A stretch of 59,894 nucleotides of DNA from Candidatus Buchananbacteria bacterium (lineage in GTDB: Bacteria > Patescibacteriota > Patescibacteriia > Buchananbacterales > UBA6539): NCBI GenBank assembly GCA_041664165.1, contig JBAYLH010000007.1:1-59894 (forward strand), written 5' to 3'. The notes under the pieces were generated by a model. The model searched no databases. It worked only from the letters and a program-made list of their open reading frames with translations, and was not told the origin of the DNA. Below are positions 27-30,513 of this stretch, in pieces. Every line of letters begins with the position of its first letter. The stretch's first letter is position 1. Both the position numbers and the translations under genes were made by a program.

Positions 27-3000
27 TTAATACTTTTCTATCACTTTGATCGAGGCAGCGGCCGATGGGATATTTTTCTTGTTCCAGTTATCTTGAACTT
101 CAATGACTGGTTTAACCAGGCAGTAGTTTTGATCCGCCGGACAATCCAAATTCGGACCACGATTCGGGGAATTAGAAGTCCGCTTTAACTGCCAATAATC
201 ATAAGTATGATAAATCGTAAACGGATTTTCCAAATTCGGCCGCTCGCGCAAAGAAACGCCGGAAACCGAAGTTTTTTCGCCGTCTTGCCAGTCAACCGAA
301 TAGGACTTCAAAGGCAGCTGGTTGGCATCAACTTTAACCGTAAAATCCAATTTAACGGCGCCAACACCGTTAATCACCGTACTTTTCTGGCCATTAACTA
401 GCGTACTAGGAATTGCCGGTTCAATCCAGCAAACGTCGCTGAAAACACCCATCGGATCGGGATTGCCGGCCGGACGCTTGTTCTCTCCACACCTAGGGAA
501 AGAACCGCAGTTGATTGGCGGATTGGCTAAACAGTCCCAAGTTAAGGCATTACTGTTACTCACTTCTTTATACCCGTCGCCAAAATGGTTGATATTGCAA
601 GTCGCGGTATTGGTATTAGCGCAAAGGCTTTTATCGGTAACCGTACAATTCGCTGAATTATCGCTGCAAAGACCGCCAGTGGCCGCCGTGAAATCCCAGC
701 CGGTGCCATAACTTTTCAGAAAAATCCGTTTTAAATAATTTATGTCGTGTAGTTCGCCCATCCTGGCCTGATACGGCGCGCCTAAAGACGGCTGGGGCGG
801 TTCATAGAAAAGCGGCTGGCGGTTATTGGTCGTCCGGCTGTCCCAGTCCGGCGGATTTTGCAGGCCGGCCGGTGGAACAATCGCGCCGAAAGGTTCGTAA
901 TCTGAAGATTGATAGGCAAAATCCGGACTGTCAATATTGCCGTTCACGGCTTGGGCGGCCGTCAGAAATTGATCATAATTAAACGGATCGTAATAAAGAT
1001 AATAATTCCGATAGCTAGCGCCGACTTTTTTGCTGTTGGGGTCAGGCAAGAGGTATTGAGAACCCGGCGCCACCCGCGTTGACCAGGCCTTATTATTGCC
1101 GGTCGCGTCAACCACCTGGACTACTTGCTTGCAATAATTAACATTAATATCGTTAGTTTTAAAATTACCGTAAACTCCCGGCGCTTGTTCGGAACCTTCC
1201 ACCAAATTAATTACCGCCACGCCGTAAATATCGTTAGGAATATCCGGCATCGGATCAACAAACTGGCCGGTAAACCGCGGGTCATTTTCCGTTACAATGG
1301 TAACGCCGGTCGCCATTCCGATTTTGGCGCTGAACTGAACTCCTGAACTTATTTGAAGCGCCGCGGCTATATTTTCCATATCGCCGCCAGCCGCAAAGCC
1401 AAGGAGTGCTGAACCGGCTTGAGTAAATAAATTTAGAAATAGAGCTTGTGATTGAAAAGTTTGCATATCATCAATATAGCTGGCTGAACTTATTTGCGTT
1501 GAATTGTAGAACTTAAAACTATTTATATTTAAAAGAAGAGCCGCAGATGGATCTCCGGGAGAACCACCTGCAAGATTACCTACTATATCTAATGCTGAAC
1601 CAATAAGTTGAGAAATTCCAGGGTCACCACCTAATGCCCCTATTAAACCGGTAATTGCCGACCAAGGAACTATGAAACTCAGGGTGGCCGGTAAAAAACC
1701 ATAAATCTCACTGCCTTGCGATTGTAAATTAAAAGTTACATCACAACCTTGTATATGATCAATATTAGGATCACAATTTCCCGTTGGACCAAACGGCGTG
1801 CTATCTACGGTCGGCGGTAAATTCAAAACCATTCCTAAACCTCGCATCGCGAAGGCGGGCAAGTTGTCCGGTTCAAATTTAAAGTGGCCCTTGATTTGCC
1901 GGACATACGGATAGCGGAAAAGCGGCCGGTAGTCTTCGTTGATTTGAAACGGCACCAGCTGAACCGATCGGCCCTGGTTGTCATTGCTGCCGGCGCTGTA
2001 GCTGGTATAAGTATTGAAAGTGGCCATCAGCTGAGTTGACGGGAAAGCCGGCATCTCGCCTTTTTGCACACAATAATAAAGCGGCGTCTGGATTTGGTAA
2101 GGCACGACTTCATCGGCCATTTCGCCTTTGATTTGGTCGATTGGCAGCCACTGGACGCACTGCTGGGGATTATTCGGATCAGCGGTCAGGCAATAGCCGT
2201 ATTGGCCGATATGATAAATATTTTTGGCGTCGATATATTCGCAGGCCAAAGAACTATATTCGGGGTAAACCCGGCAGCTGCGGGAGACAAAATCATTGGC
2301 CGCAAAATTCAAATCATTACTCGTAACATTTTTAACCTGCAAAACCGGTTTTAAAGAAATCTGGTCAAACAGGGAATAGCCGCTGATGCCGCACTTGGTA
2401 TCGTCTTTACCGTCCCGGCAAGTGGCAACGTCACTAGCATAATTACTCAAATAAAGCGTCATTTTTGAACCCTTATCGCCGGAATTAAAGTCATAAGTCA
2501 GCTTCTGCCATTTGTTGCCGCTGGGTAAAACCAAAGCTTTGGGGCAGCAAACTTTGCTTCCGCTGTTATAATAGTCTCCTTCTTTTCGGCAGCTACTTTC
2601 GATTTCTGGATAGTAACAGACTTGCCCCCGCAAATAAGTACCCGGCAAAGTTCCCATAGTGGGATCGTCATGTTTTAATTCTTCGGTATTAATCCAGGCG
2701 GTCAAAATATAGTCGGTATTTTTTTCCAAATCAATTTCGGAAGATTTTGCCTCATAAGACGTGTTTAATTTCAAGTATCGGCCTTCGAGCCGCTGTTTGG
2801 AATTGGTTTCCAAAGTATATTTGTAAGGCATCCAGCCGCGGCCGTCAGTCGTATGGTCTGAACTCTGATTGCTGTATTCGCTCCAGGCCAGCGGCTGATT
2901 AGTTTGGTTAAAAGCCAATTCAAAATCGCCGTTGGAAATATAAGCCGCATTGCCGTACTGGGTCATTTCCGCGTAGGGGAAATAGCCGTTGATAGTCCGG

Positions 3001-6000
3001 GCGCAAGTTGTGAACGAGCCGGTGCAATCATTTTTAGAGTTGCAGGCGGCGCCGTTATTCATGCCGTTAGCGCAAACGCCCTGGTTAAAGCTCAAGCCGG
3101 CCGTGGCATAACCGCTTAAATTTTTAATTTCCTCAACTGTGCTGAACGCCGACTTTCTTAAATCATTGCCGCTTGAATCTTTACCGGCCGCCGGAACAAA
3201 ATTAGTGCAAATGCCGCTCTCATCAGCCGCATTGCAAAGGCCGAGGCTGAGGCATTGCTTTTGTTCGCCTTCGCTGGTAACGGCCGTAACCGCGTAGCTG
3301 GTACAAGCCAGCCAAGCTTCGCATTCGCGATCCGGCGTTACTTTCAAGACGGCATTGGAATCGCAGCTGCCCGAACAATTCGCCACCGGCAAGCCGTTAT
3401 TAACGTTGATGCCGCTGGTGTCGGCGTCAAAGCCCAGGGAGCTGATGTCATCTTCGCCGATTTTGAAATTAACCTGGCTGCGGTCATTAAACAAAACACA
3501 GCCCCGCTCCGGATCAACGATGCCGTTGCAGCTGAATTCATCAACCGTGTTGCTTAAAGTATAATAAATGCCGGTTTTGAATAAATTGACTTGTTTGACT
3601 GAATCTTTAATGTTATCCAAATCGCTGCCTTTTAAGTCCAGTTTGCAAACTTGCTTTTTGGGCACCGTAAAGCGGACGGAATAGGTGGTTTCCGCTGGAA
3701 AATTGCTGATTTGGTCAATTGTCCGGCTGTCGGCCTGGTAATTTCTCGGCGGAATTTTAAACGATTTATTGTCGCTGGCGATTTCAATTGAATGGTCGAA
3801 GGAAACGGCGTTCGGGCAGTCTTTCATTTCAATCACTAACAGGCTGCCATCAAGTTTCTTTTTGGCAGTAAAACTCAAAGTATATAAAGTATTGGCTTCC
3901 AGCTGCAAACCTTCCTGCGTGTAATTATCAGCGCCTTTTACCCAGCCATCGGGGACACTATTATTATCACTATCCCGGCTTAAATCGCCGTTGAAGATTA
4001 AATTTTTGGCAATCGTGCTGACGGGATCAATAAACTGAGTGCAGGAATTGAATTCGCCCGGACATAAGCCCGTCCAGCCATTGCTCGGATGGACAGCACC
4101 GACCGGCGGCTGAACCAGCGGGCAATCCGGTATTGTCGAAGCTGAACCGGATTTGAACCAGGCCGAGCTCGCCTGGCCGGGGGCAACCCGGTATTCGCAG
4201 GTTTTGGCTCCCGGATCTTTGAAATAAGCCGTCCCGTTGCCGGTCCGAAATTCATCGCAGCCGAATTCCGAACTTTGGCAAAGAATTGAACTATATTTAT
4301 CCGGATCATTAATCAGATAAGCCGTCTGGTAGCCGACGACTTTGTCAGCCGTGCTGATTTGCGGCCAGCCCAAAGCCTGGCAGCCTTTGTTGGCCGCGGT
4401 GCATTGAAACTGCGGCCGGTTAACCAGATAAACCAATTTGTCAGCCGGCACGCTAACCGCCGAAATCGGATCGTTGGCATTAAATGGCACTTCCGGTTCA
4501 TAAGGCGAAGCGGAATTAAAAGTATCAATCAGCGCCTGGCAGCCGATTACTTCCTGGCGGCACAAATGGTCGAATGATTTTAAATTATGGGTTCGGCTGT
4601 AGGAATCCCGATACTGCTTGCAGCCGAGCATAAATTGCGGCGCGGCAATCGGACCGGACGAAAGCCACGGATTGGTGTCGCAGCTATTCGGCGTTTTCCA
4701 GGAATTTTTGATTTCATAAACATAATTTTGAACTTCTTTGATTTCAATATTATCCGCGTAGAAAGCCGGCGTCCCGCCATTTTCACCAGTTAAGCTTAAA
4801 GCTAAATCCGAAGGAATGGCATCGGGCATGGTAAACGGCCCGAAATTATAATAATTCCAGTCCGAACCGAGGTTGGTTGATTCTTGAATAATGGCGCTGC
4901 CGGCCGAACCGCTGGCGAGCTTAACTTTGATTGGAATAGTATTGGTGGTCGAGCCTTTGGCCCAAAAAGAAATCAAATAAGTCTTAATCGGTTTAATCAG
5001 CTGGCTCAAATCCGAGCAAGATGATTCGCCGACATTAATCAGGCAAACCTGGCCGCCGGCGGTATCATCGGAAACGCACTTGCCCAAAGTCCGATCGAAA
5101 CAATCTTTGGCGTTATTGCCGCTGCAGGCTGTTACGCTTTCCGTGCAATTGCCGCCAGACGATAATTTGCTGTAAGCGCTGGCAATAGTTTCCAAACCAG
5201 CCAGCTGCTGGCTTTTAATTGAGTGGCCGCCGACGGACAACGCTTCGCTGCTAATCGTGCCGCTCTTCCAACCGACCGTGTCGCCGGGTTCAAAATTATC
5301 GGCAAAAGCCGTAAAGACGTTGCCGCTGGCATTACCGCTGTATTCGCGGCAGCCGGCGACGTTATTAGAACAGGCCAAACCTTGGCTGGGAATTGCCTGG
5401 TAAACGCAAGTTTTACTGCTGCCGTCCCAGGTGCCATGGCTGGCAGTACAATTAGCCGTCGCTTCGGCATCGCCTTCGTTCAGCCGCGATTTGCGGAACG
5501 GATGGCAGTCATCTGAACAGGCGATGGTATTATTATAAATCCGATAATAAATATTGCCGTCAATGCCGTAAAATTCCTTGCAGAAAGGATTGGAAATTAT
5601 ATCTTCCGGCCCGTCGCAGCAAGCCGGCTGGCCGTTAGCGCCGGCCGCCGTATCAGCGCACCAGTAAGGCAGCCAGCTTGAAATATCCATGGCCGCTTGC
5701 GGCGAACCGGCCGCGGCGGCTAAATTATAGACTTTGAGCTGGTAGCCGGCTTCGTCGGAACCCTGCCAATTATAGAAATTCTGGCAGCTGACGCCCGGGT
5801 CATTCGGCTTTTCGCAAAGCCTCAGGTATTTATAATATTCCTTGCCTTCGCCGCCCTTGGCAACTTCGTCTAAATTGGTAAATTCATCGCAGCCGGCGCT
5901 GGCGGCATTGCATTGTTTTCCGGTGGCCGGAATGAAATAATTAATCGAAGCCTGGCTTTCAAAAAAAGTATTTGATTGTTTATAAGAATCATAGCCGACG

Positions 6001-9000
6001 CATTCCGCCGGGCAATAGTCTTCCAGTTTGACGACGCCCGGAATTGTGGTTCCGCCTTTTAGCGGGGTATAAGCTTCGCAGCCGACTTCGTCTTGCTGGC
6101 AATACAAAGCGTAATTGGCGCACTGGGGCGAATCAACTTCGTGGCAGCAAAAATTGCCGGCCGCATCGCAGCTGTCAGCGGCGCAGGTGCCAGAGCCGCA
6201 ATCGGAATTAGCGCTGCAGCCTTGGCCGGCTTTGTCACCGCCCTGGCAGAACTTCCGCCAGACCAAAGTGTCGCCAACGCACTGAGCTTTGGTAACGCCG
6301 TCTAAAACCGCGGGGTTTGGCCGATCCAAACTATAGCCTTTGCAATCCAGTGAAACCGGCGCTTTTTTCAGATAAGTTAGGTTAGCCGCGCCATAATCTT
6401 TGTAGCTGGTCGTTACCGGATTTTTAGTTTCAACTTCTTCGATTTGAACGCCGTCAAGATAAAGCGGCTTGGTATTATCGGTACTCAAATTAGCGATTGA
6501 GAGTTTAAAATTATCGCTGCTGATTCGGGTAGTAATCGGATTGGCGACAAATCTCTGCCATTGGTCGGTTAAATGCAAAAATGCCGAATTATTAATTTGA
6601 AGCGGCGAAAAATCAGCCAAGCATTTGCCCTGGTTTCGGCCGCCAGCCGGACAGCCGCTCACCCCGTCGGCGCAGGTGCATAAATCATTAGTTGGCTCGC
6701 AGCTTAAAGCCGGATTCAAACTGCAAAAATGATCCGGATTATGATCGGATAAAATTTCCAAATACCACAGGCCGTCTTCCGGTTTTATTTCTTTGGTCGT
6801 CGAATCGGTTTTGGCCCAAAAAGAAATCCGGTAAGTGGTGTTGGCTTTCAAACCGGTAACCGGCCCGGTATCAAAATCCCGCGGCCGGCCCAAATTATCA
6901 TTATTTATTTTCAAGCATAATTTACCCACCGGGCAATCATTTTGAATTTGTTCAATTGAAGCATTATCGCTCGCTTGATGGCTTTCTCCCCAAAACCAGC
7001 CTTTGGGCAAACTACTAGCATCCGGCCAGTCTTCAAAACTGGCATTGTCAATCAAATTCGTGCCGGCATTGGGCAAAGTCTGGATGAATTCGGAACAACC
7101 AGCTTCCTCGGCCGAACAAGAACCGGCATCGCGGTCTAAATATAATTTGCTTTCGTCGCGGTCAATCGTCCCGACCAAAGTTAAAACTGCCCGATTAGTG
7201 ATGCAGCTTTTGGAAATCCGGAAATTATCAAACCAAACCACACCACTGACTTGTTTAACGCCGTCGCCGACTTCAATTCCGACCTTCACTTTGCCTTTGC
7301 CGTTGCCGGCGGCCGTAACCTTAAAATCAAAACTGATTTGCTGCCAGCCATTTTCTTTATTGACCATTTTTTCCCCTAGCACGCTGCTAGCCAAAGCATC
7401 GGTAACTTTTAAAGTAACATCGCCTTGGTTTAAATAATCATAAACTTGACTTGAAAAAGTATAATCGCCGGCCGGCAATTCCAATTCGGCCGAAGTCGCC
7501 GATTCGTCAATAACCGAACCGTAGTTGAAAAATCTCAAGCTCGCCTGGCCGCCATCGGCATAAATTCTTTCCGCCCCGCCGGCAACCTGGCTGAAATATT
7601 CCCGGTTGCCTTGCCACTTCAAAGAAAGCTGGCCGGTTGCCGGTGCCACGGCCGTTTCAAAACTCGGATTAGGCAACAAATTATCCAGGCTACTGCAGCT
7701 GTCGATAGCGCAAGAAACTCCGTTTTGCTTGATGGTGCAGCCGGTATTGACCACGCATTTGCTGCCGCTGGCCACCCAGAATTTTGAGCCGGAACTGCAT
7801 TTGTCGCTGATAGTCAAATTAACCTGCGAATTGGCGTCAAGACAGAAATTCAAGCCGTTGGGAATATCGCAGCTCGCCGTTACCGGACAGCCGCCTTTCT
7901 GGGTGCAGGGTTTGAGAACTTTTTTACCCTCATTAACGCAAGTCCAAATATTGTCAACCGGATTATAAGTCTGGCAATACCATTTGCAGCCGGCGTTATT
8001 GATGCTGCAGCCGTTGTAATTCAAAGAATTGGCCAAATAGCTGGCCACTGAGCCGCTGCTGCTTTGAAAAGTCTGACAGGTGTTATAATTAGCGCTGCAA
8101 TCTTTTCCGGCTAAATCCCAAACTCTTTTTTCTTCGCTGCAATAGCCGTAATTGCGGCAAGTGCCGTCGTTATTCCGGCTGATACAAGACTGGAAATCCG
8201 CGCAATATTCGGCGCGGCCGATATCGAGACTGGCCGCTTCGTCAGCCGAGCTGCCGGTTTCGGCTTGATAGATAATTTTCGGCCCGAAGCCCTGATTTTT
8301 ACAGATGACTTCCGGCAATTTTAAAACCCAATCCGGATCAATCAAGCCGTGATAAATACTCGCCGCATCGTTAGGGTCATTAAATTTTGAAACTAAATAA
8401 TTAAGGGTAATAATTTTACCGGGATCAAGCAGATGACCGGCTTCGGCCGCTAATTCCCAGCCAACCGGCACAATCCGGTAACTCCTCATAATCACGATAT
8501 TCCGATAAGACAGCTCCAAATTTTTCGCCGTCGGATCAAAATTCCAGGCTCCGAACGGCGCTTCACCGTCAATTAACCCGGCCTTCAGCGCATCCTTTAA
8601 AGTCATTTTTCTTTCGATGATATCGCGAAAAGCCGGCGAAATCACGCATTCTTCCGATCCCGGATTTTTGGGATCAGGACAAAAACTCAATTTGCTTAAT
8701 AAATCATAATCGCTGCTCGGCTTAACGCCGGCTTCCAAAAAATCCAAAAACCGCCGTTCGGCCGCCTTCTTGCCGCCGTATAAAGACACTCCGGTGTCGC
8801 CGGTATATAAATCCTGACTGCCGCCAGGACCCGGCCGAGGCAATAAACCCGCCAAAGCCCGGGCCAAATCTTCAATATAATTTTCATCATTGCCGGCATT
8901 GCTGGCCAAACCCTGCCTAAACCATTTGTCAAAAAGTTTGGACATTAAAGTATTGGCAAAAGTCGCAATCGCATAACCAAAAATATCGCCGAAAGGAACG

Positions 9001-9959
9001 TCCTCGGCCGCCTTGGTGCCTTTGCTGAGCGCCTGGTAAGACGCTTCGGAAACCAAAGACGATGGCGTCAAAATCGAATCAGCAATTTTTTGGCCGACCG
9101 ACTTCCAGCCTTGGCCTTCCTGCCGGCCCAAAATCCCGGCTAATTCATCTTTGGCTTTGGTCTGATAATAAAAATCAAACATCGAAAAAGCAATGCCGAT
9201 GTCATTAGCTGACGGCTCAAAAATACCGGTGAATTTATTCAAAAAATTCGGATCCTTGGCAAAACTTTGCCAATTCTTTACTAGCTGGGTTACGGTGCAT
9301 TTCGGCGGTTTCGGCCGACCCAGTTCGCTGATTCCCAAACTGATTCTGATTTTAATCGGACTGGCCGGTTCGCAAACATTATAATGCAGCCAGCTGCCGC
9401 TCAAACTTTCCAAAAATTTACCGCCGGCGGCATCGGCCAAATCCTTTAAATAAGCGCCCCAGCCCTTGGTATAAAACATCGGCTTTTGGCCTTCATCGCC
9501 GGTCGCCAGCCAAGTGGCCGTATCATAAGCAAAGGTATTAAGCATGTGGCTGACTGCGGTTTTGGCCGCCGCGTAAACGGAGTCTTTCAAGCTTTCCCAG
9601 CCCCAGTCCCTGACTTTAAAGAAATTACCCCACCAATCCTGCAAGCGCTGAATAAAAGTCAGATTTTTATTGGTGGTTTTGGTATCTTTATCAACTGCAT
9701 TGATAGTATCTTTTTGATTACCAGTTACTTCATCAAATTGGGGCTTGGTTACTTCGACTTCAATTGCGCTGGGCGACGCTGCCGCTTTGACCGGCAGCGG
9801 ATATAAAGCCGCTGGCATTACCGAAACTAAAACCATTTGAACCGTAATAATGATGGAAGCGGTTTTTTTAAAGCCGGAAAACCAAGGCCGACTCACCCGA
9901 TTTTTCAGCTGGGTTTGACCGTCTCCTGGCTTGGCAGATTTATTTGAAAAGTAATTCAT
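27..9959 (-). CDS. Giant (3310 aa) secreted/surface protein, Cys-rich, with several CBM4/9-like (galactose-binding fold) domains
   Basis: Single long ORF; N-terminal hydrophobic segment (ASIIITVQMVLVSVMPAALY); recurring domain starts NLLPNPSFET, NLIDNASFED, NLIFNGDLS, YISNGDFE; about ten C-x4/5-(G/S/T)C-xx-(F/Y/L) modules. Confidence 0.8.
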   Translation of the reverse strand: MNYFSNKSAKPGDGQTQLKNRVSRPWFSGFKKTASIIITVQMVLVSVMPAALYPLPVKAAASPSAIEVEVTKPQFDEVTGNQKDTINAVDKDTKTTNKNLTFIQRLQDWWGNFFKVRDWGWESLKDSVYAAAKTAVSHMLNTFAYDTATWLATGDEGQKPMFYTKGWGAYLKDLADAAGGKFLESLSGSWLHYNVCEPASPIKIRISLGISELGRPKPPKCTVTQLVKNWQSFAKDPNFLNKFTGIFEPSANDIGIAFSMFDFYYQTKAKDELAGILGRQEGQGWKSVGQKIADSILTPSSLVSEASYQALSKGTKAAEDVPFGDIFGYAIATFANTLMSKLFDKWFRQGLASNAGNDENYIEDLARALAGLLPRPGPGGSQDLYTGDTGVSLYGGKKAAERRFLDFLEAGVKPSSDYDLLSKLSFCPDPKNPGSEECVISPAFRDIIERKMTLKDALKAGLIDGEAPFGAWNFDPTAKNLELSYRNIVIMRSYRIVPVGWELAAEAGHLLDPGKIITLNYLVSKFNDPNDAASIYHGLIDPDWVLKLPEVICKNQGFGPKIIYQAETGSSADEAASLDIGRAEYCADFQSCISRNNDGTCRNYGYCSEEKRVWDLAGKDCSANYNTCQTFQSSSGSVASYLANSLNYNGCSINNAGCKWYCQTYNPVDNIWTCVNEGKKVLKPCTQKGGCPVTASCDIPNGLNFCLDANSQVNLTISDKCSSGSKFWVASGSKCVVNTGCTIKQNGVSCAIDSCSSLDNLLPNPSFETAVAPATGQLSLKWQGNREYFSQVAGGAERIYADGGQASLRFFNYGSVIDESATSAELELPAGDYTFSSQVYDYLNQGDVTLKVTDALASSVLGEKMVNKENGWQQISFDFKVTAAGNGKGKVKVGIEVGDGVKQVSGVVWFDNFRISKSCITNRAVLTLVGTIDRDESKLYLDRDAGSCSAEEAGCSEFIQTLPNAGTNLIDNASFEDWPDASSLPKGWFWGESHQASDNASIEQIQNDCPVGKLCLKINNDNLGRPRDFDTGPVTGLKANTTYRISFWAKTDSTTKEIKPEDGLWYLEILSDHNPDHFCSLNPALSCEPTNDLCTCADGVSGCPAGGRNQGKCLADFSPLQINNSAFLHLTDQWQRFVANPITTRISSDNFKLSIANLSTDNTKPLYLDGVQIEEVETKNPVTTSYKDYGAANLTYLKKAPVSLDCKGYSLDRPNPAVLDGVTKAQCVGDTLVWRKFCQGGDKAGQGCSANSDCGSGTCAADSCDAAGNFCCHEVDSPQCANYALYCQQDEVGCEAYTPLKGGTTIPGVVKLEDYCPAECVGYDSYKQSNTFFESQASINYFIPATGKQCNAASAGCDEFTNLDEVAKGGEGKEYYKYLRLCEKPNDPGVSCQNFYNWQGSDEAGYQLKVYNLAAAAGSPQAAMDISSWLPYWCADTAAGANGQPACCDGPEDIISNPFCKEFYGIDGNIYYRIYNNTIACSDDCHPFRKSRLNEGDAEATANCTASHGTWDGSSKTCVYQAIPSQGLACSNNVAGCREYSGNASGNVFTAFADNFEPGDTVGWKSGTISSEALSVGGHSIKSQQLAGLETIASAYSKLSSGGNCTESVTACSGNNAKDCFDRTLGKCVSDDTAGGQVCLINVGESSCSDLSQLIKPIKTYLISFWAKGSTTNTIPIKVKLASGSAGSAIIQESTNLGSDWNYYNFGPFTMPDAIPSDLALSLTGENGGTPAFYADNIEIKEVQNYVYEIKNSWKTPNSCDTNPWLSSGPIAAPQFMLGCKQYRDSYSRTHNLKSFDHLCRQEVIGCQALIDTFNSASPYEPEVPFNANDPISAVSVPADKLVYLVNRPQFQCTAANKGCQALGWPQISTADKVVGYQTAYLINDPDKYSSILCQSSEFGCDEFRTGNGTAYFKDPGAKTCEYRVAPGQASSAWFKSGSASTIPDCPLVQPPVGAVHPSNGWTGLCPGEFNSCTQFIDPVSTIAKNLIFNGDLSRDSDNNSVPDGWVKGADNYTQEGLQLEANTLYTLSFTAKKKLDGSLLVIEMKDCPNAVSFDHSIEIASDNKSFKIPPRNYQADSRTIDQISNFPAETTYSVRFTVPKKQVCKLDLKGSDLDNIKDSVKQVNLFKTGIYYTLSNTVDEFSCNGIVDPERGCVLFNDRSQVNFKIGEDDISSLGFDADTSGINVNNGLPVANCSGSCDSNAVLKVTPDRECEAWLACTSYAVTAVTSEGEQKQCLSLGLCNAADESGICTNFVPAAGKDSSGNDLRKSAFSTVEEIKNLSGYATAGLSFNQGVCANGMNNGAACNSKNDCTGSFTTCARTINGYFPYAEMTQYGNAAYISNGDFELAFNQTNQPLAWSEYSNQSSDHTTDGRGWMPYKYTLETNSKQRLEGRYLKLNTSYEAKSSEIDLEKNTDYILTAWINTEELKHDDPTMGTLPGTYLRGQVCYYPEIESSCRKEGDYYNSGSKVCCPKALVLPSGNKWQKLTYDFNSGDKGSKMTLYLSNYASDVATCRDGKDDTKCGISGYSLFDQISLKPVLQVKNVTSNDLNFAANDFVSRSCRVYPEYSSLACEYIDAKNIYHIGQYGYCLTADPNNPQQCVQWLPIDQIKGEMADEVVPYQIQTPLYYCVQKGEMPAFPSTQLMATFNTYTSYSAGSNDNQGRSVQLVPFQINEDYRPLFRYPYVRQIKGHFKFEPDNLPAFAMRGLGMVLNLPPTVDSTPFGPTGNCDPNIDHIQGCDVTFNLQSQGSEIYGFLPATLSFIVPWSAITGLIGALGGDPGISQLIGSALDIVGNLAGGSPGDPSAALLLNINSFKFYNSTQISSASYIDDMQTFQSQALFLNLFTQAGSALLGFAAGGDMENIAAALQISSGVQFSAKIGMATGVTIVTENDPRFTGQFVDPMPDIPNDIYGVAVINLVEGSEQAPGVYGNFKTNDINVNYCKQVVQVVDATGNNKAWSTRVAPGSQYLLPDPNSKKVGASYRNYYLYYDPFNYDQFLTAAQAVNGNIDSPDFAYQSSDYEPFGAIVPPAGLQNPPDWDSRTTNNRQPLFYEPPQPSLGAPYQARMGELHDINYLKRIFLKSYGTGWDFTAATGGLCSDNSANCTVTDKSLCANTNTATCNINHFGDGYKEVSNSNALTWDCLANPPINCGSFPRCGENKRPAGNPDPMGVFSDVCWIEPAIPSTLVNGQKSTVINGVGAVKLDFTVKVDANQLPLKSYSVDWQDGEKTSVSGVSLRERPNLENPFTIYHTYDYWQLKRTSNSPNRGPNLDCPADQNYCLVKPVIEVQDNWNKKNIPSAAASIKVIEKY

Positions 9960-20245: not shown

Positions 20246-21349
20246 TTAATGATTAAGCAAAAAATCAAAACTGCCGGAAATCATGGCATGGGCGTTCCTA
20301 ATTGCCCGGTCGCCAACTTGGCCGGCATATCGGCTGGTTATAATATCATTACCCACGGCAACCCAAGCGGCCTGGCTGCCGCCGATTCCCGCCAAAATAT
20401 CAGTTTGAAGCTGGGTAAAACCATTGAGCCCGGCTTGGCCTAAATTAAAAGCCATATCCGTCAAGACCACCTGCCGGGCTTCGGAAATTCGGCCCAAAGC
20501 ATCCCAATTCGCCTGGCCGCCGACATAATTAATTGCTGTTTGATTGGCAGCGACTAGCCTTGATTGATACAAAGCTTCGGCCTGTTGCGGCGACAGTACC
20601 GTGTTAGCATTTAAAGTGACGGTTTCGGAAGTACCGTTGGCATAAGTCAAAGTAACCTGGTCGCCCGGCGTAAACCGGCACCCGGCGCCAATCGTCCAAT
20701 TGCCGAGGTTATCCTGATAAGCGCCCAAAGAAAAATTGCCAGATCCTTCATTATTTAAAATATAAGAATAAGCATCGCCGGCATAACCGCCGGGTAAATT
20801 ATATTGCCCCGGATTGGGATAATAATCATAATCACCGATACCGGTATAACCGGGCGTAAAAATCGGACCGGTCACGCCGGGCAATTTCGCCACTTGAATC
20901 TGTTTGATTTTAATCCCCTGCAAATTAATTAATGAGGGATTAATGGTCGCTAAAATCATAAACGCAAAAAAGGCCAAAAGCAAGCCGCTCAAAGCGCTGG
21001 CGATAAATTCTTTGGCCGTGCCGACTTTATCCGGACTGCCGGCTGACATCAGCCAAACCAAGCCGCCGGCCATAATCATCACAATAGCCAAAGTCGCCGC
21101 CAAACCGATGCCGTATTTATACAAAGCCGAAATGTAATCGCCGATCCAAGGAATACAATAATTACCGCCGCAAGGCTCAATCGGTCCGAATTTAATCGGC
21201 GTATTGCCCAGCTGAAACTGAATTTTCGGTTCGCTAACCGCCCCGGAAGAATTGGGAATGGTAACGGTGTTTGAATCCGCTTTTAAACCAACGGGCAATA
21301 ATAAAAAAACTAAAAAAAATGAGAAAATAATAATCCTGAAATATTTCAT
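20246..21349 (-). CDS. VirB2/TrbC-like pilin fused to a T4-type (GH24) lysozyme domain
   Basis: Pilin segment YISALYKYGIGLAATLAIVMIMAGGLVWLMSAGSPDKVGTAKEFI; C-terminus ILNNEG...AYQDNLGNWTIGAG and RQVVLTDMAFNLGQAGLNGF...SRYAGQVGDRAIR parallel T4 lysozyme motifs. Confidence 0.85.
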   Translation of the reverse strand: MKYFRIIIFSFFLVFLLLPVGLKADSNTVTIPNSSGAVSEPKIQFQLGNTPIKFGPIEPCGGNYCIPWIGDYISALYKYGIGLAATLAIVMIMAGGLVWLMSAGSPDKVGTAKEFIASALSGLLLAFFAFMILATINPSLINLQGIKIKQIQVAKLPGVTGPIFTPGYTGIGDYDYYPNPGQYNLPGGYAGDAYSYILNNEGSGNFSLGAYQDNLGNWTIGAGCRFTPGDQVTLTYANGTSETVTLNANTVLSPQQAEALYQSRLVAANQTAINYVGGQANWDALGRISEARQVVLTDMAFNLGQAGLNGFTQLQTDILAGIGGSQAAWVAVGNDIITSRYAGQVGDRAIRNAHAMISGSFDFLLNH

Positions 21350-21526: not shown

Positions 21527-22396
21527 CTAACGCGGCCACTCCGGTACCCAGGTCCAATTAGCCCCGGCAGCTTCAACGTGAAAATGCCGCCCGGTTCCTC
21601 CCGGTTCATCCACGAAAATCGTACCGTCTCGCATTCTATATGCCCTGCCCCACGTAAGCTGAGTAAAATTTGACCCATCGGGATTTTTGATAGCATTGGT
21701 TGTTACATAGTTATAACAAGGAGCCGTCATACTCGCATCCCAGACATAACCCGAACCATGGCGGTTCTCACCGGCTCGATAGCCATCAGTCGAAGTGCAG
21801 CCTTGGTCTTGATAGAGTTGCCGCCTTTGATTTGCTTCGTCTGTTAGCTGAGTAAAATTGCCGCGAGCCGTGCCGCCGCCGGCTCCTGTCCCGGCTCCGA
21901 TTGCCGCAAATTCCGCTGAACCGCCCGAACCAAACCCGGGCGATATCACGCCCGGCAACTTCGCGACGGCGATTTGCTTTATCCTAATGGCTTCCAAGTT
22001 GGTCAGTTTCGGATTTATCGCCGTTAGCACCATAATGGCAAATAAGGCCAAAAACAATCCGCTCAAGGCGCTAGTGATAAACTCTTTGGCTTTACCGACT
22101 TTATCCGGACTGCCGGCCGACATCAGCCAAACTAACCCGCCGACCATAATCATCACAATGGCTAAAGCGGCGGCGAAACCGACGCCGTAGTTATATAAAG
22201 CGGAAATATACTGGCCAAGCCAAGGAATTGAACACTCGGAACCGGCGGTGCAACTGACCGTTTGAAAATCAATTTTAGTTGAGCCGATTATAACCTGCAT
22301 TTTAGGCGGCGTGGTCTCACCAGCGGCCAAAACTAAAACCGGCAGAAAAATTGTCAAAATTAAACTGGCTAATAAAATTTTATTTCTCTTTTTCAT
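21527..22396 (-). CDS. VirB2/TrbC-like pilin fused to a putative M15-like Zn peptidase domain
   Basis: Same pilin segment; C-terminal GYR...RHGSGYVWD and HFHVE match the H-x(3-6)-D / HxH pattern of M15/LAS peptidases. Confidence 0.75.
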   Translation of the reverse strand: MKKRNKILLASLILTIFLPVLVLAAGETTPPKMQVIIGSTKIDFQTVSCTAGSECSIPWLGQYISALYNYGVGFAAALAIVMIMVGGLVWLMSAGSPDKVGKAKEFITSALSGLFLALFAIMVLTAINPKLTNLEAIRIKQIAVAKLPGVISPGFGSGGSAEFAAIGAGTGAGGGTARGNFTQLTDEANQRRQLYQDQGCTSTDGYRAGENRHGSGYVWDASMTAPCYNYVTTNAIKNPDGSNFTQLTWGRAYRMRDGTIFVDEPGGTGRHFHVEAAGANWTWVPEWPR

Positions 22397-22508: not shown

Positions 22509-23387
22509 TCACATTGAAATATTCAACCTATTTGATTGCATCATATTTTCTATATATGACAACCCGGATGACATATCCATATTATTCAAATTCTGAGCCA
22601 TATCCCTAAATAGTTGGGGGATAGGAAAAATCAAATTACCCGGTGAATACCAGTGATTAGCAAGATTTGCTTGATTTGAAGCATCAACCCAGGGTATGCC
22701 ATCATTTATCGTTCGCGCATCAATTCCCCCATAATAGTATTGCCACCGGCCATCGTAAAATCTTAAATTTAACACACTTGTTGCCGACATTCCGACACGA
22801 TTTATTTCCGGCGGCGTTTCGACATGGATAAATCTACCATTATCAAAATCAGTCGCAGAAATACGCGCATTTAGGCCATTAGTGATTCCTTCAAGCCGCG
22901 GATTTACCCCGGTAACGGTAATTCCTTTTAAATTAACCAAATTGGGATTAATCGTGGTTAAAATCATCACCGCAAAAAGCGCCAAAAGCAAACCGCTCAA
23001 AGCGCTGGCGATAAATTCTTTCGCTTTGCCGACTTTGTCCGGACTGCCGGCTGATAATAGCCAGACTAAGCCGCCGACCATAATCATCACAATAGCTAAG
23101 GCGGCGGCCAAACCGATGCCGTAGTTATATAAAACGGAAATATACTGGCCGATCCAGCTAATTTGCAAGCACTGAACGCCGTTGGCCGTGCCGTTGGGAC
23201 AATAATTCGAACCACTTTGCCAGCCGGCGTTTTCGCCCGTCCAGCCGCTAAAGCCGCCGAGATGAATTTGAACTGTCGGCACAATCGGATCAGCCGCCAA
23301 GGTCAGGTTGGCGCCAAAAATAAAAATGAAAAAAAATAGCAAAAATTTTCCCGGGAGGCTCAAATTAAAATTTATTTTTTTAGCCAC
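22509..23387 (-). CDS. VirB2/TrbC-like pilin with unrecognised C-terminal domain
   Basis: Same pilin segment (YISVLYNYGIGLAAALAIVMIMVGGLVWLLSAGSPDKVGKAKEF); AT-richer unrelated C-terminus; GTG start 3 nt after the dsbA stop. Confidence 0.75.
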   Translation of the reverse strand: MAKKINFNLSLPGKFLLFFFIFIFGANLTLAADPIVPTVQIHLGGFSGWTGENAGWQSGSNYCPNGTANGVQCLQISWIGQYISVLYNYGIGLAAALAIVMIMVGGLVWLLSAGSPDKVGKAKEFIASALSGLLLALFAVMILTTINPNLVNLKGITVTGVNPRLEGITNGLNARISATDFDNGRFIHVETPPEINRVGMSATSVLNLRFYDGRWQYYYGGIDARTINDGIPWVDASNQANLANHWYSPGNLIFPIPQLFRDMAQNLNNMDMSSGLSYIENMMQSNRLNISM

Positions 23388-23390
23388 AAA

Positions 23391-24146
23391 TTATTGGTTT
23401 AGATAAGAAGTAATCATCTGCTCAAAAACGTTAAAAGGAACCGCGCCGGAAAGCTTGAGTCCGTTGATAAAAAAAGTGGGCGTGGCGGTAACGCCTAAAT
23501 CGGCGCCAGCTTGTAAATCCTCTTCGATTTTTTTGAGATATTTGCCTTCGGCGATGCAGGTATCAAACAGCGGCATATTCAAACCAGTCTGCAGGGCATA
23601 GGTTCTCAAGTCCGGAGTTAATAATTTAGTCTGATTATCAAAAATTTTATCATACATCGGCCAAAATCCGCCTTGTTCATTGGCGCAAGCCCCGGCCATC
23701 GCCGCCATTAAGGCTTGGGGATGATTATCAACTAAGGGGAAATTGCGAAAGACAAAAAGAATCCGGTCGCCATAATCTTTTAAAAGCTTTTTAACCACGG
23801 GGTAGGCTTCTTCGCAAGCCGGACACTGAAAATCGGCAAATTCAACAATTACCACTTTAGCGTCTTTTTTGCCGAACTTGGGGTCGTCAACTCCAAAAAA
23901 GCTGGAAAAATCTTTCGGCTGGGCTGAATTGACATTGCCGAAAACCTGTTTTGGGCTGACTTCACCGCTTTTGACCAAAGTTACAACTCTGGCGGCATAA
24001 AAAATCAAAGCCGACAAAATCATCAAAAAAACCGCCGAGAAAGCCAAAATTATCCGGCCCCACCATTTCTGATACCATTTTTTTTTGGTTTTTCCGGTTT
24101 TTTGTTGGCTGGGCGGCAGATTAAAATAATCGTTTGAACTAGGCAT
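23391..24146 (-). CDS. Membrane-anchored DsbA-family thiol-disulfide oxidoreductase
   Basis: EFADFQCPAC active site, RNFPL, GVTATPTFFING (cis-Pro loop); N-terminal TM. Confidence 0.93.
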   Translation of the reverse strand: MPSSNDYFNLPPSQQKTGKTKKKWYQKWWGRIILAFSAVFLMILSALIFYAARVVTLVKSGEVSPKQVFGNVNSAQPKDFSSFFGVDDPKFGKKDAKVVIVEFADFQCPACEEAYPVVKKLLKDYGDRILFVFRNFPLVDNHPQALMAAMAGACANEQGGFWPMYDKIFDNQTKLLTPDLRTYALQTGLNMPLFDTCIAEGKYLKKIEEDLQAGADLGVTATPTFFINGLKLSGAVPFNVFEQMITSYLNQ

Positions 24147-29265: not shown

Positions 29266-30513
29266 ATGAAAAAACTTTTACTCTGTTTGCCGCTTTTATT
29301 AACCTTGCTTGTTTCCGGCTGTCAAGCACCACCGATTGCCCAACCTAATGTTAACGACAACGGTGCTAATTTGGATTCAATTGGTAAAACCATTAAAGGT
29401 AATGATGAATTCGGCTTGAATTTATATACTAAATACAAGACCAAAGACGGCAATATTTTCTTTTCACCCTATAGCATCTCTTCGGCTTTGGCGATGACTT
29501 ACGAAGGCGCCAAAGGCCAAACCGCCGCTGAAATGCAGAAAGTTTTCGGCTTTTTAGCCGACCCGACCGATCGCCGGTCTTCTTTTGCTAAAATCTACAA
29601 CGATTTGAACGCAAAAAATGAAGATTACCAGCTTAACACAGCCAACGCTTTATGGGTGCAAAAAGATTTTCCATTTTTAGCTGATTATCTTAACCTGGTT
29701 GAAAAATATTACGGTGGCAAAGCAACCAATTTGGATTTTATAAATCAAACCGAACAGTCCCGACAGACAATTAACCAATGGGTGGAAAAAAAGACTAATA
29801 ACAAGATTCAAAACCTCCTGCCCCAAGGCAGTGTTTCTGGTGACACCAGGCTGATTTTAACCAATGCCGTTTATTTCAAAGGAACCTGGCTTTTCCCGTT
29901 TGAAAAAAGCAGCACTCAAAAAAAAGATTTTCAGCTAACACCAACCAATACCGTTACTGTCGATATGATGCAACTATACGGCAAAAAATTTAAGTATAGC
30001 GAGACTAATAAACTCCAAGCCTTAGAAATACCATACAAGGGTGATAAAATTTCCATGCTAATTCTATTGCCAAAAAATAACGATTTGGCGTATCTGGAAA
30101 ATAACCTCAACTTGAAAAATTTAAATGAGTGGAAAACCAGCATGAACTCAGAAAAAGTCACAGTTTTTTTACCTAAATATAAATTTGATACAAAATATGA
30201 TATGGCCCAAGATTTAACTCAATTAGGCATGCCAACCGCTTTCAATTGTTCACTCGCTGATTTCTCCGGCATGACCGGCAAAACTGACTTATGTATTGAC
30301 CAGGTCATTCATAAAGCCTTTATTGAAGTTGATGAACAGGGAACTGAAGCCGCGGCGGCTACGGCGGTTATCATGAAGACTAGCATGGCTGGTCCGACTC
30401 AACCAGAAAAAATCTACTTTTTTAATGCTGATCATCCATTTATCTTCTTAATTCAAGACAAACAAAGCGGCAATATCTTATTTTTAGGCCGAGTCAGCGA
30501 CCCGACCAAATAA
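29266..30513 (+). CDS. Serpin-family protease inhibitor, probable lipoprotein
   Basis: NIFFSPYSISSALAMTYEGAKGQT, hinge EQGTEAAAATAV, FNADHPFIFLI; lipobox LLVSGC. Confidence 0.95.
   Translation: MKKLLLCLPLLLTLLVSGCQAPPIAQPNVNDNGANLDSIGKTIKGNDEFGLNLYTKYKTKDGNIFFSPYSISSALAMTYEGAKGQTAAEMQKVFGFLADPTDRRSSFAKIYNDLNAKNEDYQLNTANALWVQKDFPFLADYLNLVEKYYGGKATNLDFINQTEQSRQTINQWVEKKTNNKIQNLLPQGSVSGDTRLILTNAVYFKGTWLFPFEKSSTQKKDFQLTPTNTVTVDMMQLYGKKFKYSETNKLQALEIPYKGDKISMLILLPKNNDLAYLENNLNLKNLNEWKTSMNSEKVTVFLPKYKFDTKYDMAQDLTQLGMPTAFNCSLADFSGMTGKTDLCIDQVIHKAFIEVDEQGTEAAAATAVIMKTSMAGPTQPEKIYFFNADHPFIFLIQDKQSGNILFLGRVSDPTK

What the first reader, a model, noticed from the sequence alone, without database searches (positions are those of the whole stretch)
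22509..22880. Unrecognised, AT-richer C-terminal domain on the third pilin
Seen: about 120 aa with no motif I recognise (FDNGRFIHVETPP...FYDGRWQYYYGGIDARTINDGIPWVD...), encoded by visibly AT-richer DNA lacking the host GCC/GGC codon bias of the pilin part. Inference: a recently swapped-in module. By analogy with its paralogues it is a candidate novel wall-active enzyme, adhesin or toxin.
Basis: partly seen in the sequence, partly recalled or inferred. Interest (0 to 1): 0.6.

Follow-up and report, generated by a model that had tools for sequence, protein, structure and literature searches.

The report
Orphan tail on secretion-pilin-like protein
The last 125-135 residues of this exported, pilin-like membrane protein from an ultrasmall groundwater bacterium match nothing in any database searched and use AT-ending codons, so the tail is a lineage-specific surface domain of unknown job, most likely a replaceable binding head.

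Summary
Gene 22509..23387 (minus strand, 292 aa) has a signal peptide, a VirB2-type T4SS_pilin hairpin (PF18895, above cut-off) and a tail of about 130 aa with no family match.

- **Orphan status:** the tail's only significant relatives among 1.84 billion representatives and 5.8 billion clusters are near-identical copies. It was not found in 19 of 19 other genomes of its family.
- **Codon usage:** tail GC3 is 0.35 against 0.57-0.59 upstream. Corrected for amino acids it lies in the lowest 2.2% of genome windows. The step coincides with the end of homology.
- **Locus:** dsbA, then 1-3 pilin-hairpin genes, then uvrA, is conserved across the family. Hairpins cluster by genome (concerted evolution), while tails differ.
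- **Relatives:** the first gene after dsbA mostly carries unannotatable, mutually unrelated tails. Later genes often carry wall hydrolases. AT-shifted tails are family-wide, so the step alone does not date a swap.

"Swapped-in module" is therefore partly supported: a lineage-specific replacement is likely, but its recency is unproven. Function is unresolved because the structure models are poor (pLDDT about 49). My best guess, at 0.4, is an extracellular binding or specificity head working beside the two wall-hydrolase paralogues. Interest is moderate.

The parts
23391..24146 (-). DsbA-like thiol-disulfide oxidoreductase gene. Its stop codon lies 3 nt before the p3 start, so the two genes are probably co-translated.
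   Evidence: Pfam Thioredoxin_4 8.3e-30 and DSBA 4.2e-17. It sits upstream of the pilin-hairpin genes in 14 of 14 fetched family loci.
22509..23387 (-). p3, the whole gene (292 aa, GTG start). It is the first of three tandem VirB2-like hairpin fusion genes.
   Evidence: ORF list. Near-identical protein in 4 database members. A 3,880-nt contig of an independent run covers it.
23295..23387 (-). Signal peptide, residues 1-31, with a probable cleavage after LTLA.
   Evidence: Read from the sequence. AF2 predicts a helix at 11-32. The cleavage site is an inference.
23163..23294 (-). N-terminal ectodomain, residues 32-75, with two Cys (C63, C73) that are invariant in the three paralogues.
   Evidence: Alignment A1. 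This part is alignable to P0010 and G018 orthologues.
22920..23162 (-). VirB2-type T4SS_pilin two-helix hairpin, residues 76-156, with a short Lys-rich loop (SAGSPDKVGKAKE).
   Evidence: PF18895 1.3e-6, 28.8 bits against a cut-off of 26.6, residues 78-146. AF2 helices at 77-112 and 116-146. The three paralogues are 75-79% identical here and form one clade with 96/90 support.
22512..22919 (-). Orphan C-terminal tail, residues 157-292. The finding's span 22509-22880 covers residues 170-292 plus the stop. The tail has no Cys and no Lys and is 13% Asn. It is predicted as four beta-strands followed by three helices, at low confidence.
   Evidence: No family or homologue. Codon shift. AF2 pLDDT 48-50. 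Composition.
21527..22396 (-). p2, the paralogue with a different tail. This tail type is shared with three other family genomes. It carries an H..D / HxH motif that I read as a LAS-type metallopeptidase; the motif name is recalled, not computed.
   Evidence: PF18895 2.9e-6. Tail cluster of 4 genomes. Invariant R212 H213 D220 H271 H273 E275 in alignment A4. Weak PDB row at E=0.046.
20246..21349 (-). p1, the paralogue with a GH24 phage-lysozyme-type tail.
   Evidence: PF00959 1.2e-4, 22.9 bits against a cut-off of 22.3. PHROG endolysin 2e-7. Tail cluster with G011 and G010.

Best explanation
What p3 is: an exported membrane protein of a Patescibacteria genome. NCBI labels its relatives Candidatus Buchananbacteria.

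Topology (inferred): after signal-peptide cleavage, a VirB2-like two-helix hairpin sits in the membrane, or possibly in a T4SS-type pilus. Its Lys-rich loop faces the cytoplasm. Both ends lie outside the cell, so the tail of about 135 aa is extracellular.

What the tail is (shown for orphan status, inferred for role): a lineage-specific, non-enzymatic binding or specificity head. It occupies the first slot of a conserved dsbA-linked locus, and in that slot the head differs in almost every genus. The next two genes carry wall-cutting heads, a LAS-like peptidase and a GH24 lysozyme. The three proteins would act together at the cell surface or at a contact site with a host cell.

How the locus evolves (shown for hairpins, inferred for heads): the hairpins are kept alike within each genome by gene conversion. 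The heads lie between two such conserved stretches and are replaced or turn over quickly. This would produce the sharp break in both homology and codon usage.
For: Architecture and topology:
- PF18895 hit above its cut-off; signal peptide; two long helices joined by a K-rich loop.

Locus:
- dsbA lies immediately upstream in 14 of 14 fetched family loci, and uvrA lies downstream in 12 of 14. The other two stretches end, or show no UvrA hit, within what was fetched.
- 18 of 19 other family genomes carry this hairpin subfamily, against 0 of 11 genomes of the other four families of the order.

Head variability:
- 35 tails fall into 23 BLAST clusters, 16 of them singletons, including p3.
- Of 14 first-slot proteins in relatives, 12 have no supra-threshold Pfam domain in the tail.
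- Of 13 later-slot proteins, 3 have 3D or SLT domains above cut-off, and 3 more have 3D or glucosaminidase domains below cut-off.

Concerted evolution:
- Hairpin identity is 0.78 within genomes and 0.59 between genomes.
- In 8 of 12 genomes with two or more copies, all copies form one supported clade. No clade groups copies by slot across genera.

The tail is real coding sequence:
- It has 1 stop (the terminal one) in its own frame, against 4-12 in the other five frames. P(open for 123 codons) is about 1.2e-4 at this base composition.
- It is identical in a contig of a second, independent groundwater study.

Composition fits an extracellular protein (the general rule is recalled, not computed):
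- The tail has 0 Lys in 132 aa against 8.2% in the proteome. Only 0.57% of 132-aa windows, in 14 of 1,027 ORFs, are Lys-free. Many sister tails are also Lys-poor.

Recombination acts at this locus:
- 11 of the 12 differences between the window and the independent contig lie in 358 nt spanning the dsbA 3' end to p3 codon 70. The binomial P is 6e-11.
Against: - No binding fold, lectin motif or ligand is identified, so the role rests on position and exclusion.
- Both structure models are poor: pLDDT 48.3 and 49.5. Foldseek found nothing at E<=0.001, VIA-align's best Z was 3.7, and the ESM Atlas gave no usable hit. An enzyme fold is therefore not excluded.
- Two of 14 first-slot tails in relatives are wall hydrolases, a lysozyme in G011 and a 3D domain in G002. 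The slot is not reserved for non-enzymes.
- The locus is not next to the VirB4-like gene (G000 contig C14) or the short-pilin array (contig C13). A link to the T4SS or a pilus is unproven.
- There is no divergent homologue and no variant inside the tail, so selection on the tail could not be measured.
Confidence: 0.4

Rival explanations
1. The tail is a novel cell-wall-active enzyme. It would be a third hydrolase specificity beside the LAS-like peptidase (p2) and the lysozyme (p1), displayed on the same kind of hairpin anchor.
For: - The paralogues and many relatives carry wall hydrolases on the same anchor: PF00959 in p1; 3D, SLT and glucosaminidase in relatives.
- Two of 14 first-slot tails in relatives are hydrolases.
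- The tail contains His188, Glu190, Asp180 and Asp182, and His245, which could serve in catalysis. This is read from the sequence only.
Against: - No hit to any enzyme family in Pfam, NCBIfam, PHROGs or PDB sequences.
- There is no homologue, so no conserved catalytic residue can be named.
- Most first-slot tails in relatives are non-enzymatic in appearance, either Cys-rich knots or unannotatable.
Confidence: 0.15
2. The tail is an evolutionarily young or decaying stretch without a specific function. It would be a filler left after loss or replacement of an older head, or a recent extension into AT-rich DNA, tolerated because only the hairpin matters.
For: - It is an orphan in every search.
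- Its synonymous sites (GC3 0.31-0.35) are close to the GC of neighbouring intergenic DNA, about 0.31-0.33.
- The structure models have low confidence.
- Its Asn-, Ile- and Met-rich composition fits AT-driven sequence.
Against: - An open frame of 123 codons at this composition has P of about 1.2e-4 without selection, and all five other frames hold 4-12 stops.
- GC1 > GC2 > GC3, as in real genes of AT-rich style.
- The sequence is identical in two groundwater studies, with no frameshift or stop.
- AF2 and DSSP still give a regular pattern of four strands plus three helices in both runs.
Confidence: 0.2
3. The tail is a toxin or effector head delivered to a host or competitor cell. This would resemble polymorphic toxins, which have a conserved N-terminal carrier and variable C-terminal warheads.
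For: - The locus family combines a conserved carrier with hypervariable C-termini.
- The tail is Lys-free.
- Patescibacterial T4SS genes are essential for epibiotic growth and lack relaxases, so protein export has been proposed (passages of PMC10633639 and PMC12102498).
Against: - No immunity-like small ORF follows. The gap to p2 is 112 nt, and no ORF of 60 aa or more lies there.
- No match to any toxin family.
- The carrier is an integral-membrane hairpin, and no release site is evident.
- The locus is not near the VirB4-like gene.
Confidence: 0.08

Closest known systems
VirB2-like pilin arrays of Patescibacteria (Pfam PF18895 T4SS_pilin; Microb Genom 2025, PMC12102498, passages read; essential pilin series in the T4SS cluster of Southlakia epibionticum, Cell 2023, PMC10633639, passages read)
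   Same: - The same Pfam module, with a hit above its cut-off.
- Tandem paralogues with high variability.
- The same phylum.
- The proposed purpose of adapting to different hosts is stated in the passage read from PMC12102498.
   Different: - Here the hairpin carries extra extracellular domains of 106-227 aa.
- The variable part is the appended head, while the hairpins are homogenised within a genome at 0.78 identity. The paper reports an average of 25% identity within arrays.
- The locus sits between dsbA and uvrA, not beside virB4.
- I did not see such fusions described in the passages read. The paper's supplements (for example Table S3) were not opened and could list them.
Pilin-hairpin / peptidoglycan-hydrolase fusions: this window's own p1 (GH24 lysozyme) and p2, and similar fusions noted by earlier agents of this scan in other Patescibacteria
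   Same: The same anchor, the same operon and the same predicted outside-facing C-terminus.
   Different: The p3 tail matches no hydrolase family and none of the 34 other tails tested.
Polymorphic toxin / contact-dependent systems with a conserved N-terminal carrier and swappable C-terminal domains (recalled from general knowledge, not tested as a family)
   Same: It works like them in its layout. There is a conserved carrier and a sharp junction, unrelated C-terminal domains occur in close relatives, and the variable part has foreign-looking codon usage.
   Different: There is no immunity gene and no toxin family match. The carrier is a membrane hairpin, and several heads are wall hydrolases rather than toxins.
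VirB2 paralogue variation in Bartonella and Anaplasma T4SS loci (as cited in the passage read from PMC12102498)
   Same: Tandem VirB2 paralogues, thought to vary surface-exposed parts for interaction with hosts.
   Different: In those systems the pilin itself varies. Here the pilin part is the constant region, and an added domain varies.

Membership tests
PF18895 T4SS_pilin (VirB2-like pilin of Patescibacteria) | Match to the family HMM above Pfam's gathering score | tested here: met
   p3 scores 28.8 bits against a cut-off of 26.6, E=1.3e-6, residues 78-146. This applies to the hairpin, not to the tail.
PF18895 T4SS_pilin (VirB2-like pilin of Patescibacteria) | Signal peptide followed by two hydrophobic helices joined by a short, positively charged loop | tested here: met
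   Sequence, AF2 helices at 11-32, 77-112 and 116-146, and a loop with K118, K121 and K123. The topology itself is inferred from the positive-inside rule.
PF18895 T4SS_pilin (VirB2-like pilin of Patescibacteria) | Encoded in or beside the T4SS (virB4) gene cluster | tested here: not met
   The only AAA_10/VirB4-like match in the genome is on contig C14. The window's neighbours are housekeeping genes.
PF18895 T4SS_pilin (VirB2-like pilin of Patescibacteria) | Polymerises into a pilus | not testable with these tools
Peptidoglycan hydrolase families carried by the sister tails (GH24 Phage_lysozyme, 3D, SLT, glucosaminidase, LAS-type peptidase) | HMM or sequence match of the p3 tail to the family, with its catalytic residues | tested here: not met
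   - No Pfam hit at E<=10.
- No NCBIfam or PHROGs hit.
- BLAST and hhalign to 34 sister tails give nothing: no BLAST hit at E<=1e-3 (best E=0.96 in a relaxed search), hhalign probability <=1.2%.
- A fold-level test was not possible because the models are poor.
Uncharacterised 5-6-fold repeat proteins P0003 / P0004 (blade-like repeats of about 52 aa) | A significant match of the tail to a single repeat unit | tested here: not met
   - The whole-protein E-values (2.6e-5 and 2.7e-4) come only from summing 4-6 copies of one 30-aa match.
- Single stretches score -1.6 to 17.5 bits, which gives library-wide E of 350 or more.
- These proteins have no Pfam or PDB identity of their own.
Frataxin / CyaY fold | Sequence or fold match | tested here: inconclusive
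   A single PDB row, 4jpd_A, at E=1.3 over 47 residues. It was not recovered by Foldseek or VIA-align on the low-confidence model.
Diversity-generating retroelement target (variable region) | A near-identical template repeat of the variable DNA elsewhere in the genome | tested here: not met
   blastn of the tail DNA against the whole genome gives only the tail itself, plus chance matches of 16-31 nt.
Polymorphic toxin-type cassette locus | Conserved carrier, variable C-terminus and a cognate immunity gene directly downstream | tested here: not met
   The carrier and variable-tail pattern is met. There is no ORF of 60 aa or more in the 112-nt gap before p2.

The most novel reading that the evidence does not exclude
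The dsbA-uvrA locus of this Buchananbacteria family is a head-swapping system. The VirB2-like hairpins are kept uniform inside each genome by gene conversion. They also act as homology arms, between which extracellular heads are imported, exchanged or newly born. On this reading the p3 tail is a freshly acquired or de novo-born host-specificity determinant with a fold not yet represented in any database. It would be displayed next to two wall-cutting heads in order to pick and open a particular host envelope.
Probability: 0.22. Interest if true: 0.65.

Novelty: new variant of a known kind. Interest (0 to 1): 0.42.

Why it matters
Patescibacteria make up a large share of uncultured bacteria, and the cultivated members live attached to host cells. 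How they recognise and open a host envelope is largely unknown. VirB2-like pilin arrays have been reported as abundant in the phylum and essential in one cultured species (passages of PMC12102498 and PMC10633639).

This locus shows a different use of that module. The module is a constant membrane or pilus anchor, and changeable outside heads are hung on it. Some heads are wall hydrolases. Others, like this tail, are unique to one lineage. If the unique heads set host specificity, they would mark who parasitises whom in groundwater communities, and they would be a source of new folds.

The tail itself cannot yet be given a function, so its present value is as a well-defined orphan domain with clear boundaries for expression and structure work.

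Tried and rejected
1. **Propeller-blade lead.** HMMER's only non-self hits, P0003 and P0004, are 5-6-fold repeat proteins. BLASTP aligns one whole repeat to tail residues 35-85 at 25-28% identity. Single units score only -1.6 to 17.5 bits, with library-wide E of 350 or more, while 300 shuffled tails reach at most 6.1 bits. I kept this as a faint lead and rejected it as homology.
2. **Frataxin/CyaY.** E=1.3, which is chance level.
3. **Eyeballed shared motifs with non-Cys first-slot tails** (G007, G016, G015, P0010, P0022). hhalign probability for p3 was 0.8% or less. Rejected.
4. **Old tail read in another frame.** tblastn of 34 sister tails against the tail DNA in six frames gave a best E of 0.09. 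Rejected.
5. **Copies elsewhere.** Nothing was found in the own genome, genome contigs, viral contigs, phages or plasmids. The one metagenome hit, L058, lies in a wrong frame across ABC-transporter genes and is spurious.
6. **Structure.**
   - Two single-sequence AF2 runs gave pLDDT 48.3 and 49.5.
   - Foldseek against the PDB found nothing at E<=0.001.
   - VIA-align wide gave a best Z of 3.7.
   - The ESM Atlas gave no feature hit and TM of 0.45 or less.
   - No fold could be assigned, and this does not show that the fold is new.
7. **GC-rich hairpin through biased conversion or TM codon usage.** After amino-acid correction the hairpin is ordinary (z=+0.7), and TM-like segments genome-wide are not GC3-rich, at 0.43 against 0.45. 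Dropped.
8. **Expression.** No RNA holder was listed for this stretch, so nothing can be said.
9. **Selection from population data.** Only contigs were available. The independent contig has no difference in the tail, so pN/pS could not be computed. Run X3 (small share) gave only short hairpin-like pieces from other organisms.
10. **Complex prediction.** Not run, because no binding claim is made.
11. **Earlier notes of this scan.** There were none for this genome or this sequence.

Full report
**What is there.**
Four genes lie head to tail on the minus strand:
- a DsbA-like oxidoreductase at 23391..24146 (Thioredoxin_4, 8e-30);
- p3 at 22509..23387 (292 aa);
- p2 at 21527..22396 (289 aa);
- p1 at 20246..21349 (367 aa).

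uvrA follows downstream. The p3 start lies 3 nt after the dsbA stop. No terminator-like site separates p3 from p2.

The three p genes share a signal peptide, a short ectodomain with two invariant Cys, and a two-helix hairpin with a Lys-rich loop (alignment A1). The hairpin matches Pfam PF18895 T4SS_pilin. p3 and p2 score above the cut-off, and p1 scores below it.

After the hairpin the three proteins are unrelated. The p1 tail is a GH24 phage-type lysozyme (PF00959; PHROG endolysin). The p2 tail belongs to a type shared with other genomes and carries an H..D / HxH pattern. I read that pattern as a LAS-type peptidase; the motif name is recalled, not computed. The p3 tail is the subject of the finding.

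**The observation.**
The finding's coordinates are residues 170-292 plus the stop codon.

- *No motif.* Pfam finds nothing for the tail even at E<=10. NCBIfam, PHROGs and PADLOC also find nothing.
- *Raw composition.* GC falls from 0.51 to 0.39 and GC3 from 0.59 to 0.35. The change lies between codons about 150 and 165.
- *Codon choice.* In the sequence itself, GCC is used for 0 of 8 Ala and GGC for 3 of 10 Gly in the tail.
- *Genome-wide rank.* The raw tail GC3 is only in the lowest 6.8% of 123-codon windows. The step between adjacent windows (0.22) is in the top 0.29%, reached in 7 of 1,027 ORFs.
- *After correction.* With amino-acid content controlled and Met and Trp left out, the tail is at z=-3.8, the lowest 2.2% of windows. 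The hairpin is ordinary at z=+0.7, and the p1 and p2 tails are ordinary at -0.8 and -0.7.

The apparent GC3 richness of the pilin part was partly an effect of its many ATG and TGG codons.

**Orphan status.**
- A word-based search of 5.8 billion clusters with the tail returned only the protein itself.
- An exhaustive HMMER pass over 1.84 billion representatives returned the protein itself plus two repeat proteins. Their scores come solely from summing 4-6 copies of one weak match of about 30 aa. Single units are far from significant.
- The 90% cluster holds four near-identical sequences.
- The tail was not found in 19 of 19 other genomes of the family. It was also not found elsewhere in its own genome, in genome, viral, phage or plasmid collections, or in metagenome contigs beyond one spurious wrong-frame match.
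- Two single-sequence AlphaFold runs gave pLDDT 48-50, with a repeatable but unreliable pattern of four strands and three helices. Foldseek, VIA-align and the ESM Atlas gave no usable match.
- The frame is nevertheless real coding sequence. It is open for 123 codons at a composition where that has P of about 1e-4, while the other five frames hold 4-12 stops. A contig from an independent groundwater study carries it without a single change.

**The locus in relatives.**
- *Distribution.* The p3-type hairpin is found in 18 of 19 other family genomes and in 0 of 11 genomes of the other four families of the order. NCBI labels relatives Candidatus Buchananbacteria and calls them 'pilin' or 'hypothetical'.
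- *Sampling.* I fetched 14 of the 18 positive genomes. G004, G006, G010 and G016 were left out because their contigs are short.
- *Synteny.* All 14 have SBP-secG on one side and dsbA followed by 1-3 hairpin genes. In 12 of the 14, uvrA follows.
- *Tail diversity.* The tails are very diverse. 35 tails fall into 23 BLAST clusters with 16 singletons; one of the 35 is a duplicate read of the same gene.
- *First slot after dsbA.* 12 of 14 relatives have no Pfam domain above cut-off in the tail. The other two carry a lysozyme (G011) and a 3D domain (G002). Eight first-slot tails have 6-28 Cys, which fits the DsbA neighbour. p3 has none.
- *Later slots.* These hold 3D, SLT, glucosaminidase-like and p2-type tails.
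- *Remote homology.* hhalign of the p3 tail against 34 sister tails, and against grouped non-Cys first-slot tails, gave probabilities of 1.2% or less.
- *Closest orthologue.* P0010 is 51% identical to p3 over residues 15-173, including the unusual N-terminal insertion. It then carries an unrelated 183-aa tail.

**How the break arises.**
Hairpins cluster by genome, not by slot. Within-genome identity is 0.78 against 0.59 between genomes. The three G000 copies form a clade with 96/90 support. In 8 of 12 genomes with two or more copies, all copies are one supported clade. Tail types such as the p2 type and the lysozyme are nevertheless shared between genera. This is the pattern of concerted evolution of the hairpins, with the tails escaping it. 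Conversion tracts ending at the hairpin border would explain a sharp junction.

Recombination at the locus is also visible in the population data. Of the 12 differences between the window and the independent contig, 11 lie in 358 nt from the dsbA 3' end to p3 codon 70, mostly at third codon positions. The binomial P is 6e-11.

The AT shift is not special to p3. Measured against flanking genes and corrected for amino acids, first-slot tails average z=-2.7 (8 of 15 below -2). Later-slot tails average z=-3.5 (12 of 15 below -2). Hairpins average about 0. The extreme case is G005, where genes have GC3 of about 0.78 and the tails 0.48-0.50.

Two readings fit these figures:
- heads are repeatedly imported from AT-richer sources;
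- heads evolve fast under weak codon selection.

The G005 case and the Cys-rich versus Cys-free heads favour import or replacement as a process at this locus. The data do not date the p3 event. One caveat applies: flanking housekeeping genes may be GC3-richer than genome averages. For G000 the genome-wide baseline was used, and on that baseline only p3's tail stands out.

**Most likely function.**
- *Topology (inferred).* It follows from the VirB2 pattern, the positive-inside rule and the AF2 helices. The loop faces the cytoplasm and both ends lie outside, so the tail is extracellular.
- *Composition.* The tail has 13% Asn, no Cys and no Lys, against 8.2% Lys in the proteome. Lys-free 132-aa windows make up 0.57% of the genome, and many sister tails are also Lys-poor. 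That fits an exported domain; the general rule is recalled, not computed.
- *Best reading.* Given the slot pattern, the absence of any catalytic family and the two hydrolase partners, my best reading at 0.4 is a lineage-specific binding or specificity head. It would act with the p2 and p1 wall-cutting heads at the cell surface or at a host contact.
- *Rivals.* A new wall enzyme (0.15), a young or decaying filler (0.2) and a delivered toxin (0.08).
- *T4SS link.* This is unproven. The VirB4-like gene and the array of short pilins lie on other contigs.

**Comparison with what is known.**
VirB2-like pilin arrays in Patescibacteria are described in PMC12102498 (441 arrays, average 25% identity within arrays). 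Essential pilins in a T4SS cluster are described in PMC10633639. I read passages of both, not the whole texts or the supplements.

Searches for PF18895, T4SS_pilin, VirB2 with Patescibacteria, and pilin with peptidoglycan hydrolase and fused found no description of hairpin-plus-head fusions in the passages read. The supplements might list them.

Earlier notes of this scan record pilin-hydrolase fusions in at least 11 other Patescibacteria genomes. These are unchecked leads. They agree that the carrier design is widespread.

What this report adds is threefold. The dsbA-uvrA locus has homogenised anchors and changeable heads. The AT shift is a property of heads in general. This particular head is an orphan.

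**Verdict.**
This is a new variant of a known kind, of moderate interest, with function unresolved.

Noticed in passing
window 23178-23535 (dsbA 3' end to p3 codon 70): Eleven of the 12 differences between the window and a 3,880-nt contig of an independent groundwater run lie in this 358-nt stretch, mostly at third codon positions. There is only 1 difference in the other 3,400 nt or so. This looks like a recombination tract ending just before the conserved hairpin.
   Followed up: partly
window 21527-22396 (p2) and relatives L045:7898-8935, L054:7223-8545, L047:8015-9130: The p2-type tail has no Pfam match, but across 6 sequences it keeps R212 H213 .. D220 and H271 x H273 x E275 invariant. It gives a weak PDB row at E=0.046 (9flh). 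It is probably an unmodelled LAS/M15-like wall peptidase family.
   Followed up: partly
locus L051 (G005:C23), genes 7213-8064 and 8021-9151: In this GC-rich relative (flanking genes GC3 about 0.72-0.78) the hairpins have GC3 of 0.81-0.86, but both tails, one of them an SLT domain, have 0.48-0.52 (z=-6.4 and -10.8). This is a much stronger foreign-composition signal than in the window.
   Followed up: no
G000 contig C13:939-4718 and C13:19234-19431: There is a tandem array of about 9 short (130-172 aa) PF18895 pilin ORFs plus one more 15 kb away. This is the classical VirB2-like array, on a different contig from the window.
   Followed up: no
G000 contig C1:138359-138565 and C1:141447-141641: PF18895 hairpins are embedded in giant open frames of 6,032 aa and 1,023 aa. 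The larger one also contains Lys-free stretches.
   Followed up: no
window 27-9959 (-): This is a 3,310-aa ORF whose only Pfam hit is a CBM_4_9 carbohydrate-binding domain (2.4e-15). It has several internal GC3 steps as large as the one in p3, and is probably a giant surface protein.
   Followed up: partly
window 29266-30513 (+): A full-length serpin (PF00079, 2.5e-124) is present in this small Patescibacteria genome.
   Followed up: no
tails of the whole locus family (loci L014-L043): Many tails of unrelated type are Lys-free or nearly so: 0 Lys in 132-208 aa in six full-length tails, including p3, and 1 Lys in three more. The proteome is 8.2% Lys. This suggests a shared constraint on whatever is hung on this anchor.
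   Followed up: partly
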